A stretch of DNA of 64,000 nt from the human T2T-CHM13v2.0 reference genome, Homo sapiens, in assembly GCA_009914755.4 (NCBI GenBank), contig CP086569.2, positions 17,952,001 through 18,016,000 on the forward strand, in the 5' to 3' direction. Below are positions 30,691 to 34,978 of the stretch, piece by piece (position 1 is the stretch's first letter; each line of letters opens with the position of its first letter). The notes beneath the pieces are model-generated. The model saw only the letters and a program-made list of their open reading frames with translations, did not search any database and was not told the DNA's origin. The translations under genes and the position numbers were made by a program.

Positions 30691-32640
30691 TTTAGTCTCA
30701 TCTGTTCCTCCTCTGTGCAACACAAACTTCCAGTCCAGTATCTCCCCATGGAGCACACACTTTTGTACCTCCCCTGTGCAGGACACGCTTCCTGTTTCTG
30801 CCATGTTCAGCTTATATGTTGTTTCTTTTTTGTGCAGGACACACTTCCTGTTCTGCCTTTGTGCAGAACACACTTCCTGTTCCTCTTCTATGCAGGACAC
30901 TTTCTGTTTCTCCCCTGTGCAGGTCATACTTCCTGTGTTTCCCCTGTGCATAACACACTTTCTATTTTTCCCCTGTGCAGCACCTATTTTTCTGTTCCTC
31001 CCCTGTGCAGGACACACTTTCTGTTACTCTCCTGAGACAGACAAACTTCATATCTCCCCTGTGCATGCCACTCTTCCTGTTTCTCACCTGTGCAGCACAC
31101 ACGTTCTGTTCCTCCACTGTGCAGGACACATTTCCCATTGCTCTCCAGAGACAGACACACTCCCTGTTTCTCCCCTGTGCATGCCACACTTCTTGTTTCC
31201 TCCTTGAATGGCCACCCTTTATGTTCTTCCTTTGTTAAGGACACACTTCCTTTTTCTCTGCTGTGCAGTACATACTTCCTTTTCTTGTGAGGGACACATC
31301 TTTTTTTCCTCTGTGCAGCATTCACTTTCCCTTTCTGTACTGTGCATGACGCCTCTCCTTTGTGTCCCCTGTTCATGAAACTTTTCCTGTTTCTCCCTGG
31401 TGCAGCACACACTGTCTGCTCCTCGTCTGTGGAGGACAGACTTTCTGATCCTCCCCTGTTCAGGCCACACTTTCTGTTTCATCCCTGAGCATGCTACACT
31501 TCTTGTTCTTCCACTGTGAAGCACACACTTTCAGTGTCTCTATTGTGCATACCACGCTTTCTATTTCTTCACTGTGCAACATACATTTTCTCTTCCTTCT
31601 CTGTGTGGGACACTCTTCCTGTTCCTCCCTTGTGCCTGTCACACTTCCTGTTGCTCCCCTGTGCAGGACACATTTCCTGTGTGTCCCCTGTGAGGACAAC
31701 ACTTCTGTTCCTCTTCTGTTCAGGACACACTTCCTGTTTCTCCACTTTGCCTGACACACTTCCTTTTTCTCCCCTTGCAGGACATATTTCCTGTGTCTCC
31801 TCTGTAAGGGCCACACTTCCTTTTTCTCCCCTGTGCAGCACACACTTTCTGTTTTCCCCTGTGTGGGACATACTTCCTGTGTCTCTCCTGTGTGGGACAT
31901 ACTTCCTGTTTCGTCTCTGCAAGACGCACTTACTGTATTGCCCCTGTGGGTTACAGGCTTCCTGTTTCTACTCTGTGGAATACACTTTTTGTTTCTCTCC
32001 TGTGCAGGACACACTTCCTGTTTCTCCCTTTTGAGGGATACACTTTTTTTTTTTTTTTTTTTTTTTTTTTTTTTTTTTGAGACGGAGTCTCGCTCTGTCG
32101 CTCAGGCTGGAGTGCAGTGGCGCGATCTCGGCTCACTGCAAGCTCCGCCTCCCGGGTTCACGCCATTCTCCTGCCTCAGCCTCCCGAGTAGCTGGGACTA
32201 CAGGCGCCCGCTACCACGCCCGGCTAATTTTTTTGTATTTTTAGTAGAGACGGGGTTTCACCGTGTTAGCCAGGATGGTCTCGATCTCCTGACCTCGTGA
32301 TCCGCCCGCCTCGGCCTCCCAAAGTGCTGGGATTACAGGCGTGAGCCACCGCGCCCGGCCCACTTTTTTTTTTTCTATCTTCTGCAACATTCATTTTTTA
32401 TTCCTCTTCTGTGCTGGACACACTTACTTTGTCTCTGCTGTGCAGGGCAAACTTCCTGTTTCTCCCTTTTGCCTGACATACTTCCTGTTTCTGCCCTGTG
32501 CAGGACACATATATGGCTTTCCCCCTGTGCACCACACACTCTCTGTTTCTCCCCTAGGCAGGACACGCTTTCTGTTACTCTCCTGAGAAAGACACACTTT
32601 CCGTTCCTCTCCTGTGCAGGATAAACTTCTTGTGTTTTAG
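30690..32640. repeat. 29-bp satellite, block 3 (reverse-complement orientation CACACTTCCTGT...), interrupted by the AluY at 32044-32350
   Basis: Units read ctgtgcaggacacacttcctgtttctccc and similar, the exact reverse complement of the forward unit. Confidence 0.9.
32044..32350 (-). mobile_element. AluY inside the satellite, minus orientation (candidate source of the transduction copy at 30001)
   Basis: T45 run then gagacggagtctcgctctgtcgctcaggctggagtgcagtggcgcgatctcggctcactgcaagctccgcctcccgggttcacgccattctcctgcc...gtgagccaccgcgcccggcc. Flanked upstream by satellite ...cacttcctgtttctcccttttgagggatacac. Confidence 0.9.
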
Positions 32641-34978
32641 TAGAAGAGTGTCCTGCACAGTGGAGACACAGGGAGCATGTCCTGCACAGGGGAGAAACAG
32701 AAAGTGTGTGCTGTATAAGGGAGAAACCAGAAGTGTGTTATCTGCAGTGGTGACACAGGTTGTGTGTCCTACATAGGGGACAAACAGAAAATGTGTCCTT
32801 AACAGGGGAGAAGAGCATCCTGCACAGTGAAGGAACATAAAGGGTATGCTGAACAGGGGAGGAACAGAAAGTGTGCCCTGAACAGAAGAGGAACAGAAAG
32901 TGCATCCTGCCTAGAAGAGTAACAGGAAGTTTGTCCTGCACAGGGGAGAAACAGGAAGTGTGTCCCCAGCAGGGAAGACACAGGAAGTGTCTCCCTAACA
33001 TGGGAGAAAAAGGAAGTGTGTCCTTAACAGGGGAGAAATAGGAAGTATTTCCTGCACAGTGGAGACACAGAAAATATGTCCAGCAGAGGGGAGGAACAAG
33101 AAGTGTGTCCTACACAGTAGAGGTGCAGAAAGTGTGTGCTGCATGGGGGTGAATGAAGAAGTGTGTCTGCCAGAGAGGAACTACAGGAAGTGTCTCCAGT
33201 AGAAGAAAGAAACAGGAAGTATGCCCTGCCTAGTGGAGGAAGAGAAATTTTGTCCTCCACAGGGGAGAAACAGGAAGTTTGCTTTTAACTGGGTAGAAAC
33301 AGGAAGTATGTCCTTTTCAGTGGAGAAAAAGAATGTATGTGGGGCACAAGGGAGAAAGAGGAAGTATGACCCTACAGGGGAGACACAGGAAGTGTGTCCT
33401 GGAGAGGGAGAAACAAGAAGTGTATGGAGCACATGGAGAAAAAGGATGTATGTGGGGCACAAGGGAGAAAGTGGAATTATGACCCCACAGGGGAGACACA
33501 GGAAGTGTGTCCTGGAAAGGGAGAAACAAGAAGTGTGTGGAGCACATGGGAGAAACAGGAAGTGCATCCTTAACAGGACAAACAAGAAGTGTGTCCTGAA
33601 CAGGTTAGGAAGAGTAAGTATGTACCCGACAGAGAAGACACAAGAACTGTGTTCTTAGCAGGGGAGAAACAGGAAGTGTGTCCTTAGCTGAGGAGAAACT
33701 GCAAGTGTGTCCTTAACAGGAGAGAAATAGGAAGTGTGTCCTGCACAGTGGAGGAACAGAAAGTGTGTGTTATGTAGGGGAGAAAGAGAAAGTGTATCCC
33801 CCAAAGAGGAGAATCAGGAAATGTGTCTTGCACAGGAAAGGAGCAGAAAGTGTCTGCTGCACAGGGGAGAAACCAGAAGTATGTTACCCTTAGTGGGGAC
33901 AAAGAAAGTGTGACCTGGAACAAAAAATAGGAAGTGTGTCCTTAACAGGAGAAATAGGAAGTATGTCTTGCACAGAGGAGGAACAGAAAGTTTTTGCTGT
34001 ACTGGGAAGAATCAGGAAGTGTGTCTTGCACAGAAGAAAAACAGAAAGTATGTTCTGCCTAGAGAAGTAATAGCAAGTGAGTCGGCCACAGTGGAGACAA
34101 AGGAAGTGTGTCCTGCAAAGAGGAGGAACAGGAAGTTTGTCTGCCTCAGGAGAGTAACAGGAAATATGTTCCTTCTCTTGCAGAGAGGAGGAACAGAAAA
34201 TATGTTGCACAGAGGAGATGCCAAAAGTCTGTTACCTACAGTGGTGACACAAGAAGTGTGTCCTATGTAGGGGAGAAACAAGAAGTGTGTCCCACACAAG
34301 AGAGACACAGAAACTGTGTCCTGCAAAGGAAAGGAACAGAAAGTGTGAGCAGCAAAGGGAAGAAACAGGAAATGTGCCCCTCACAGGGAAGACATAAGAA
34401 TTGTGTCCTGCACAGGAAAGTAACAGAAAGTATGTTAGGCACAGCATAGAAGCAGGAAGTGTGTCCTGCACAGAAGAGGAACAGAGAGTGTGTTGCACGT
34501 GAGAGAAACCAGAACTGTGTTACACACAGGGGCGACAGAGGAAGTGTGTCCTGCACGTGGGAGAAAGAGGAAGTGAGTCCCACACAGATGAGACACAGGA
34601 AGTGTGTTCCACACAGCAAAGACACAGGAAGATTGTGCTGCACAGGGGAGAAAGAGGAAGTGTGTGCTGCACAGGGGAGAAACAGAAAGTATGTCCTGCA
34701 CAAGGGAGGAACAGGAAGTGTGGCCTGCTTAAGGAAGAAAAAGAAAGTTTGTACTGCACAAGCAATGATGAAACAGTGCGTCCTGCACAGAAGAGGAATA
34801 GAAAGTGTGTGCTACACCAGGGAAAAACAGGCAGAGTGTCATGAACATGAAACACAGGAAGTGTGTCCTGCACAGAGGAGGAACAGAAAGTGTGTGCTGG
34901 ACAGGGGAGGAACAGGAAGTGTGTCCTGAACCAAAGATGAACAGAAAGTGCCTCCTGCCCAGTAAAGTAACAGGAATG
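32640..34978. repeat. 29-bp satellite, block 4 (forward orientation), beginning at the inversion junction
   Basis: After ...ctgtgcaggataaacttcttgtgttttagtagaagag the units flip to tgtcctgcacagtggagacacagggagcatgtcctgcacagggg. The block ends ...cctgcccagtaaagtaacaggaatgaaatag, paralogous to 25950-25975. Confidence 0.9.

What the first reader, a model, noticed from the sequence alone, without database searches (positions are those of the whole stretch)
32560..32720. Head-to-head inversion junction inside the satellite (reverse block 3 meets forward block 4)
Left of about 32640 the units read ...cacacttcctgtt... (reverse-complement orientation). Right of it they read ...tgtcctgcacag... (forward). 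The switch occurs within a few bp (cttgtgttttagtagaagagtgtcctgcacag). Kilobase-scale arrays in opposite orientation abutting directly form a large imperfect palindrome, about 2 kb by 2.3 kb. Such structures are hairpin- and cruciform-prone. They are classic substrates for non-allelic recombination, inversion toggling and assembly error.
Basis: seen in the sequence. Interest (0 to 1): 0.55.

Follow-up and report, generated by a model that had tools for sequence, protein, structure and literature searches.

The report
Old orientation flip in decayed satellite
The orientation flip at 32634-32638 is real, but it is an old, ordinary strand switch inside a decayed 29-bp primate satellite, and its two arms resemble each other only as much as any two pieces of this repeat do, so it is not an unstable palindrome.

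Summary
A degenerate 29-bp satellite (consensus ACAGGAAGTGTGTCCTGCACAGGGGAGAA) reads in reverse orientation over 30706-32633. An Alu interrupts this block at 32044-32360. The satellite reads in forward orientation over 32639-34969, and only 5 bp (GTTTT) separate the two arrays. GC and AT skew flip sign at the same place.

The arms are not mirror copies. Unit identity in the mirror register is 0.682, against 0.686±0.010 for all registers. The longest exact inverted match between the arms is 27 bp, and the best inverted high-identity stretch is 87 bp at 86%. Single-stranded DNA across the junction can fold back (-54 kcal/mol per 200 nt, z = -8.6 against shuffles). Artificial junctions built from random opposite-orientation pieces of the same satellite fold about as well, and the energy is about 40% of that of a perfect palindrome. 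High cruciform or NAHR risk is therefore not supported.

The window holds a second head-to-head flip at 40102/40113 and old paralogous blocks (75-91% identity). This points to an ancient patchwork of duplications and inversions. Strand switches in diverged satellites are already well documented. Assembly error could not be tested with reads, but nothing suggests it. Interest is low.

The parts
30706..32043 (-). Satellite block B3a: 29-bp units in reverse orientation (distal part of the left arm)
   Evidence: 47 parsed units, mean identity to the consensus 0.80.
32044..32360 (-). Young Alu inserted into the left arm (poly-T at 32044-32078), with its own target-site duplication CACTTTTTTTTTTT. 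It is not part of the satellite.
32373..32633 (-). Satellite block B3b: the nine reverse-orientation units next to the junction
32634..32638 (.). Junction J1: a 5-bp spacer (GTTTT) between the last reverse unit and the first forward unit. The centre of symmetry is at about 32636-32637.
   Evidence: In the MFE fold, 68 pairs cross the junction with i+j = 65272-65279, nearly all at 65272-65274.
32605..32674 (.). Central imperfect hairpin. It includes a 5-bp stem (32626-32630 with 32642-32646), an 11-bp run (32613-32623 with 32649-32659) built from the conserved core CTGTGCAGGA/TCCTGCACAG, and an 11-nt loop.
32639..34969 (+). Satellite block B4: 81 forward-orientation units (right arm)
34970..35856 (+). 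Non-satellite spacer of the tail-to-tail transition. It is paralogous at 75-81% to the 3' flank of block B2 (26273-27308, excluding Alus) and carries an internal direct duplication of about 520 bp.
35857..40102 (-). Satellite block B5: 149 reverse-orientation units with a 145-bp higher-order periodicity
40103..40112 (.). Junction J2: a second head-to-head flip with a 10-bp spacer (GTCTCTGTGA)
40113..40612 (+). Satellite block B6, forward orientation. It is weakly recognisable as an inverted copy of B5 37986-38463 (77.7% over 475 bp; unit-chain test, 0 of 200 permutations reached the observed score).
24415..25959 (+). Satellite block B2, forward orientation. Its 3' end and flank are an old paralogue of the 3' end and flank of B4 (25844-25969 against 34854-34979, 91%).
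1..2206 (+). Satellite block B1, forward orientation. It runs off the left end of the window.

Best explanation
J1 is a genuine, evolutionarily old strand switch inside a decayed, non-homogenised 29-bp satellite of a primate (most likely human) genome. It is the breakpoint of an inversion or an inverted duplication. The window holds six blocks of this satellite in the order + + - + - +. They were assembled by ancient segmental duplications and inversions and were later peppered with Alu and L1 insertions. Shown: the flip itself, the absence of mirror-register homology between the arms, the high divergence of units (about 68% identity in every comparison), the old paralogy of neighbouring blocks, and a fold-back potential that is generic to any opposite-orientation pair of this satellite. 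Inferred: the event is old, probably tens of millions of years, because any arm-to-arm identity has decayed to background or never existed. Its origin was somewhat more likely a fold-back or template-switch event than a random two-break inversion, because the two arms meet in mirrored unit phase with an offset of 2 nt or less. Today it is an inert structural fossil with little capacity for cruciform extrusion or homologous recombination between the arms.
For: Orientation blocks and the 5-bp junction. Skew flips. Mirror register not elevated: 0.682 against 0.686±0.010. Junction flanks z=0.8. Gapped unit-chain test p=0.26, with a positive control at p=0.01. Units are about 68% identical in all block pairs. 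B2 with its flank is paralogous to B4 with its spacer at 75-91%, and the Alus are present in only one copy. A second junction J2 lies in the same window, and B6 is an inverted copy of an internal B5 segment at about 78-83%. Longest exact inverted match 27 bp; best inverted stretches 87 bp at 86% and 63 bp at 90%. Fold of J1±150 nt is -79.8 kcal/mol, against -71±20 for pseudo-junctions, -29.8±6.3 for unidirectional satellite and -200.9 for a perfect palindrome. Phase symmetry: cross-junction pairs lie essentially in a single register. Literature: strand switches are common in diverged satellite arrays and accumulate with age together with TE insertions (bioRxiv 10.1101/2021.07.12.452052).
Against: No reads or independent assemblies spanning J1 could be examined. 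The exact junction string was not found in any searchable collection, and a junction-spanning ORF is not on record. The age of J1 itself is not measured. It is inferred from the lack of mirror homology, which a recent two-break inversion between non-equivalent array positions would also produce. Phase symmetry is weak evidence, with a chance probability of about 0.1-0.2. The satellite family could not be named with these tools.
Confidence: 0.75

Rival explanations
1. A recent or actively maintained large palindrome: an inverted duplication whose arms are true mirror copies. This would be prone to cruciform or hairpin formation, arm-to-arm gene conversion and NAHR-driven inversion toggling. It is the first reader's reading.
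For: The arms abut with only 5 bp between them and are in mirrored phase. Single-stranded DNA folds far better than shuffles (z=-8.6).
Against: The mirror register is at background. There is no collinear mirror chain. The junction flanks are not special. The longest exact inverted match is 27 bp, and no inverted stretch reaches 200 bp at 80%. The fold energy equals that of random pseudo-junctions and is about 40% of that of a perfect palindrome.
Confidence: 0.03
2. An assembly chimera: two arrays from different places or strands were joined wrongly at 32634-32638.
For: Satellites are error-prone in assembly. A low-coverage metagenome contig (L002) is a mosaic of pieces 100% identical to separate parts of this window, which shows that short-read assemblers do scramble this repeat. 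No independent sequence spanning J1 was found.
Against: The satellite is so diverged that 373 of 377 24-mers in 32436-32836 are unique within the window on both strands, so there is no long shared repeat at the join on which an assembler could collapse. The same head-to-head architecture recurs at J2. The nearby Alu has an intact target-site duplication 270 bp from the junction. Flanking blocks show coherent old paralogy.
Confidence: 0.07
3. A family-intrinsic hotspot: this satellite is prone to fold-back template switching, so spacer-less, phase-symmetric head-to-head junctions arise recurrently, or they are inherited from a palindromic master element. J1 and J2 would then be two instances of one process or one ancestral junction.
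For: There are two head-to-head junctions with spacers of 10 bp or less in one window, while both tail-to-tail transitions have spacers of 0.9 to 4.7 kb. Both junction centres fall in the same part of the unit, about 5 nt apart. B6 looks like an inverted copy of an internal B5 segment, as expected for a fold-back with a spacer. The unit contains short internal dyads (CAGGA…TCCTG, CCTG-CA-CAGG).
Against: The flanks of J1 and J2 are not detectably paralogous. The phase coincidence has a chance probability of about 0.2-0.4. The junction centres are not at the unit's natural dyads. The sample is only two junctions. The apparent small palindrome at the array edge in contig L002 sits in a chimeric contig and is not usable.
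Confidence: 0.12
4. A functional inverted repeat: transcription through J1 yields a long imperfect hairpin RNA (a small-RNA or dsRNA source), or the divergent arrays of ETS-type motifs act as a regulatory element.
For: The fold-back potential is real. CAGGAAGT, which I recognise from general knowledge as an ETS-type core, occurs 92 times in 12.8 kb of satellite against 3 times in 45.6 kb outside.
Against: There is no Rfam match in the window. Units are decaying freely (68% identity, CpG depleted). The junction is not conserved relative to J2. No expression data are available here.
Confidence: 0.03

Closest known systems
Strand switches (inversion breakpoints) inside diverged human satellite arrays, as catalogued in T2T-CHM13 (divergent alpha satellite, HSat3B5, beta satellite; Altemose et al., bioRxiv 10.1101/2021.07.12.452052)
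   Same: There is an abrupt flip of monomer orientation within one satellite family. It occurs in old, diverged arrays that also carry TE insertions, and several flips lie in one region.
   Different: This is a different satellite (29-bp unit, family name not determined here). The arrays are small (0.5-4.2 kb) and are interspersed with unique sequence, L1 and Alu rather than forming megabase heterochromatic blocks.
Large near-identical palindromes of the sex chromosomes (Y-chromosome P1-P8 type)
   Same: Kilobase-scale inverted arms lie around a short centre.
   Different: From general knowledge, those arms are more than 99.9% identical and are kept so by gene conversion. Here the mirror register (0.682) equals the family background (0.686) and there is no collinearity.
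Cruciform-forming palindromic AT-rich repeats (PATRRs) and similar near-perfect palindromes
   Same: The centre can form a hairpin.
   Different: From general knowledge, PATRRs are AT-rich and nearly perfect over hundreds of bp. Here GC is 47-49%, about 70% of positions pair, and the energy is about 40% of that of a perfect palindrome.
Inverted low-copy repeats that mediate NAHR inversions
   Same: Inverted repeated DNA lies within a few kb.
   Different: Identity and tract length fall far short: a 27-bp longest exact match and 87 bp at 86% at best. A catalogue of such substrates requires at least 200 bp at at least 80% identity (PMC11794170).
Fold-back (inverted-duplication) junctions made by template switching or hairpin-capped breaks
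   Same: It is a head-to-head junction with a very short spacer, and the arms are in mirrored phase. At J2 there is a recognisable inverted copy offset by about 1.6 kb.
   Different: At J1 no duplicated (mirror) sequence is detectable any more, so the mechanism cannot be demonstrated.
REP522 (RepeatMasker class 'Satellite/telo')
   Same: This is only a recollection that REP522 is a diverged, satellite-like repeat often annotated on both strands. Papers confirm only its class and its presence at the BAGE locus.
   Different: Not verified. My recalled sequence of miR-5701, a miRNA said to overlap REP522, has no match in the window.

Membership tests
Strand switch within a diverged satellite array | The same satellite family lies on both sides of the junction | tested here: met
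   Units on both sides align to one 29-bp consensus at 0.79-0.80. Cross-arm unit identity is 0.685, the same as within arms.
Strand switch within a diverged satellite array | Abrupt reversal of monomer orientation | tested here: met
   A run of 54 reverse hits ends at 32633 and a run of 78 forward hits starts at 32639. The skew changes sign at the same place.
Strand switch within a diverged satellite array | Arrays are old and non-homogenised and carry TE insertions | tested here: met
   Unit identity is about 68%. An Alu sits in the left arm. Paralogous blocks are 75-91% identical.
Large maintained palindrome (Y P1-P8 type) | Arm-to-arm identity far above background in the mirror register | tested here: not met
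   k=0 identity is 0.682 against 0.686±0.010. Unit-chain test p=0.26.
Cruciform-prone perfect palindrome (PATRR type) | Near-perfect inverted repeat over hundreds of bp, AT-rich | tested here: not met
   About 70% of positions pair. Fold energy is -79.8 against -200.9 kcal/mol for a perfect palindrome. GC is 0.47-0.49.
NAHR-competent inverted repeat pair | Long tracts of high identity (at least 200 bp at at least 80%; classical substrates are much higher) | tested here: not met
   Best B3/B4 inverted stretches are 87 bp at 86% and 63 bp at 90%. The longest exact match is 27 bp. Threshold taken from PMC11794170.
Fold-back inverted duplication | The sequence on one side is the reverse complement of sequence on the other side, in mirror order, possibly after a spacer | tested here: inconclusive
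   Not detectable at J1, but erasure by age cannot be excluded. Phase symmetry is compatible with it. It is detectable, weakly, at J2.
REP522 satellite family | Sequence match to the curated consensus (Repbase/Dfam) | not testable with these tools
   No repeat library is available. Literature searches gave no consensus.
Structured RNA gene | Match to a curated RNA family | tested here: not met
   There are no Rfam matches at gathering score in the whole window.

The most novel reading that the evidence does not exclude
This 29-bp satellite may be intrinsically prone to phase-symmetric fold-back template switching. Spacer-less head-to-head junctions such as J1 and J2 would then be a recurrent hallmark of the family. 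Read-through transcription across them would produce long imperfect hairpin RNAs from arrays that also carry hundreds of ETS-type motifs.
Probability: 0.07. Interest if true: 0.4.

Novelty: already known. Interest (0 to 1): 0.12.

Why it matters
It matters little as biology. Orientation flips in old, diverged satellite arrays are a documented and common by-product of satellite decay. The practical value is negative. This junction should not be flagged as a fragile palindrome or a likely inversion hotspot, because its arms share only family-level similarity (about 68%) and no long identical tracts. It is a useful example of how to separate opposite-orientation satellite from a true palindrome by using a mirror-register test and pseudo-junction controls. 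Short-read assemblies of this repeat can be chimeric, as contig L002 shows.

Tried and rejected
1. Fuzzy-regex unit calling returned almost nothing. I replaced it with Hamming scoring and a wrap-around alignment.
2. Ungapped diagonal scans lose phase through indels and were uninformative about the mirror register. A unit-level matrix replaced them.
3. Independent support for the junction was sought and not found. An exact look-up of an 87-aa ORF spanning J1 found nothing on record. A homology search with the 111-aa stop-to-stop frame gave no hits. Exact junction strings gave 0 hits in metagenome, genome and viral contigs.
4. Naming the satellite failed. Full-text searches for REP522, HSREP522, six consensus 15-mers and '29-bp satellite' phrases gave no sequence-level description. 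The only '29 bp tandem repeat' paper concerns an unrelated chr19 VNTR with MEF2 motifs. Tests with my recalled BAGE1 peptide and miR-5701 sequences were negative and depend on memory.
5. Paralogy between J1 and J2 got one suggestive signal (right arms p≈0.02 in one of seven registers). Flank alignments and chain tests did not confirm it.
6. The small perfect palindrome at the array edge of contig L002 first looked like a third fold-back. That contig is a mosaic of pieces 100% identical to distant parts of the window, so I discarded it as evidence.
7. The long ORFs in the arrays (up to 270 aa, with a 29-aa periodicity) are by-products of strand-asymmetric composition and the 87-bp triple period. 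They are not genes.
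Full report
**What the window is.** The window is primate DNA, most likely human. It carries Alu elements and a near full-length L1. A metagenome contaminant contig is 99-100% identical to it across about 750 bp. TRF finds a degenerate 29-bp satellite in several blocks. The consensus is ACAGGAAGTGTGTCCTGCACAGGGGAGAA.

**Checking the observation.** I scored every position against the consensus and against its reverse complement. This gave strictly orientation-pure blocks:

| Block | Coordinates | Orientation |
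|---|---|---|
| B1 | 1-2206 | + |
| B2 | 24415-25959 | + |
| B3 | 30706-32633 | - (interrupted by an Alu at 32044-32360) |
| B4 | 32639-34969 | + |
| B5 | 35857-40102 | - |
| B6 | 40113-40612 | + |

- The last reverse unit ends at 32633 and the first forward unit begins at 32639. Five bases (GTTTT) lie between them.
- GC and AT skew change sign at the same place.
- A second head-to-head flip, J2, lies at 40102/40113.
- The two tail-to-tail transitions, B2…B3 and B4…B5, have non-satellite spacers of 4.7 kb and 0.9 kb.

**Is it a palindrome in the meaningful sense?** I parsed all blocks into units with a wrap-around alignment and compared units between the arms, counting outward from the junction.
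- Identity in the mirror register (k=0) is 0.682. All 98 registers average 0.686±0.010, and k=0 ranks 58th.
- The same background of about 0.68 holds for every pair of blocks in the window.
- A unit-level Smith-Waterman test that allows unit indels found no collinear mirror chain (p=0.26). It did detect the known shared 3' ends of B2 and B4 as a positive control (p=0.01).
- The 174 bp on either side of J1 align to each other no better than to random family members (z=0.8, rank about 72 of 398).
- In stringent self-BLAST, the best inverted matches between B3 and B4 are 87 bp at 86% and 63 bp at 90%. Neither lies in the mirror register. The longest exact inverted match is 27 bp.
- The arms are therefore 'palindromic' only because they belong to the same satellite. 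They are not copies of each other, or any such relationship has decayed to background.

**Structure-forming potential.**
- As single-stranded DNA, 200 nt centred on J1 fold at -54.2 kcal/mol, against -25.7±3.3 for shuffles (z=-8.6).
- In that fold, 68 of the 97 left-arm bases pair across the junction in essentially one register centred at 32636-32637.
- The right control is not a shuffle but an artificial junction. Joining random reverse and forward pieces of this satellite gives -71±20 kcal/mol for 301 nt. The real J1 gives -79.8, and 16% of the controls fold at least as well. J2 gives -56.0.
- Unidirectional satellite gives -29.8±6.3, and a perfect palindrome of the same composition gives -200.9.
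- The fold-back potential is real but generic, and reaches about 40% of that of a true palindrome.
- From established knowledge, cruciform extrusion from duplex DNA needs near-perfect symmetry, and NAHR needs hundreds of bp of near-identity. A recent catalogue of ectopic-recombination substrates sets a permissive floor of at least 200 bp at at least 80% identity (PMC11794170). B3/B4 do not reach it.

**Context and history.**
- The 3' end of B2 and its flank are paralogous to the 3' end of B4 and the B4-B5 spacer. Identity is 91% over the last 126 bp of the arrays and 75-81% over the flank.
- Two Alus are present only in the B2 copy, and a direct duplication of about 520 bp is present only in the B4 copy.
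- B6 is recognisable, weakly, as an inverted copy of an internal B5 segment (37986-38463, 77.7% over 475 bp; no permutation of 200 reached the chain score). J2 therefore looks like an old inverted duplication with a spacer of about 1.6 kb.
- The flanks of J1 and J2 are not detectably related to each other.
- The region is thus an old patchwork of duplications and inversions of satellite-plus-flank modules, decaying without homogenisation.
- The arms of J1 meet in mirrored unit phase with an offset of 2 nt or less. A fold-back or template-switch origin predicts this, and a random two-break inversion would give it with a probability of about 0.1-0.2. This is mild evidence only.

**Assembly error.**
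- I could not examine reads. No independent sequence across J1 exists in the searchable collections.
- Against a chimera: 373 of 377 24-mers in 32436-32836 are unique in the window on both strands. The architecture recurs at J2. An Alu with an intact target-site duplication sits 270 bp from the junction.
- A cautionary example exists. Metagenome contig L002 has coverage 1.5 and is a mosaic of pieces identical to three separate places in this window, plus pieces from elsewhere. Short-read assemblies of this repeat can clearly be chimeric.

**Comparison with what is known.**
- Strand switches are a documented, common feature of diverged human satellites. T2T-CHM13 analyses report many inversions in divergent alpha satellite and more than 200 breakpoints in HSat3B5 and beta-satellite arrays. 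[quoted passage not shown] J1 meets each defining feature of that class.
- J1 fails the defining features of maintained palindromes, PATRR-like cruciform palindromes and NAHR-competent inverted repeats.
- I could not name the satellite. My recollection that it might be REP522 is untested, and one memory-dependent check was negative.
- No Rfam family matches anywhere in the window.

**Verdict.** J1 is an ordinary, old strand switch in a decayed satellite, of a kind already known. The evidence does not support particular instability. Interest is low (0.12). The most novel reading still open is that this family is a fold-back hotspot, or that it yields hairpin transcripts from ETS-motif arrays. 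I give that about 7%.

Noticed in passing
window 29994-30384 and 32012-32374: An apparent Alu 3' transduction. The Alu at 32044-32360 (minus strand, own target-site duplication CACTTTTTTTTTTT) lies in the satellite. The Alu at 30063-30373 is 98% identical. Beyond its poly-T it also carries 32 bp identical to the satellite flank of the first Alu (30031-30062 = 32012-32043), then a second poly-T (30003-30029). The whole is flanked by the target-site duplication TGGGCATTAT. The upstream copy therefore looks like a retrocopy of a read-through transcript from the downstream one, 2 kb away.
   Followed up: partly
window 40102-40113; 37986-38463 against 40118-40611: There is a second head-to-head flip, J2, with a 10-bp spacer. 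The short forward block B6 is weakly an inverted copy of an internal B5 segment about 1.6 kb away (77.7% over 475 bp; no permutation of 200 reached the chain score). This suggests an old fold-back duplication with a spacer.
   Followed up: yes
window 25844-27308 against 34854-35856: The 3' end and flank of block B2 are an old paralogue (75-91%) of the 3' end of B4 and the B4-B5 spacer. Two Alus (25970-26261, 26432-26742) are present only in the B2 copy. The spacer contains its own direct duplication of about 520 bp (about 35128-35346 and 35647-35856).
   Followed up: yes
all satellite blocks (12.8 kb in total): Each unit begins with ACAGGAAGTG, which I recognise from general knowledge as an ETS-family binding consensus. 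CAGGAAGT occurs 92 times in the satellite and 3 times in the other 45.6 kb. The arrays are strongly CpG-depleted.
   Followed up: partly
window 15422-21500 (minus strand) and 52306-54564: There is a near full-length L1 with an intact 338-aa ORF1 (19540-20556) and ORF2 split into three ORFs. A second, truncated L1 copy has a 3' part (52306-54211) that is 96.7% identical in direct orientation, and an adjacent 353 bp (54212-54564) that matches the next L1 segment (17335-17688) at 98% but inverted. This is the pattern expected of a twin-priming 5' inversion.
   Followed up: no
L002 (ERZ1033861 NODE-5752, 1758 bp, coverage 1.5): This metagenome contig is host contamination. It is 99-100% identical to window 37555-38307 and 100% identical to window 36385-36577, and its positions 513-550 are the exact reverse complement of window 25441-25478. 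It also has stretches that match nothing in the window closely. It is a chimeric short-read assembly of this satellite.
   Followed up: yes
L001 (OJLO01013272.1, 1049 bp): Another metagenome contig carries about 0.9 kb of the same satellite family, about 72-75% identical to every block here, ending in an Alu and starting with sequencing-adapter sequence. The family is therefore multi-locus.
   Followed up: partly
satellite blocks, for example 38217-39029 (+) and 1600-2238 (+): Long ORFs (up to 270 aa) with a 29-aa periodicity (for example …[29 protein letters not shown]…) arise because three 29-bp units make 87 bp and each strand is depleted of the bases needed for stop codons. They have no homologues in the protein database.
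   Followed up: partly
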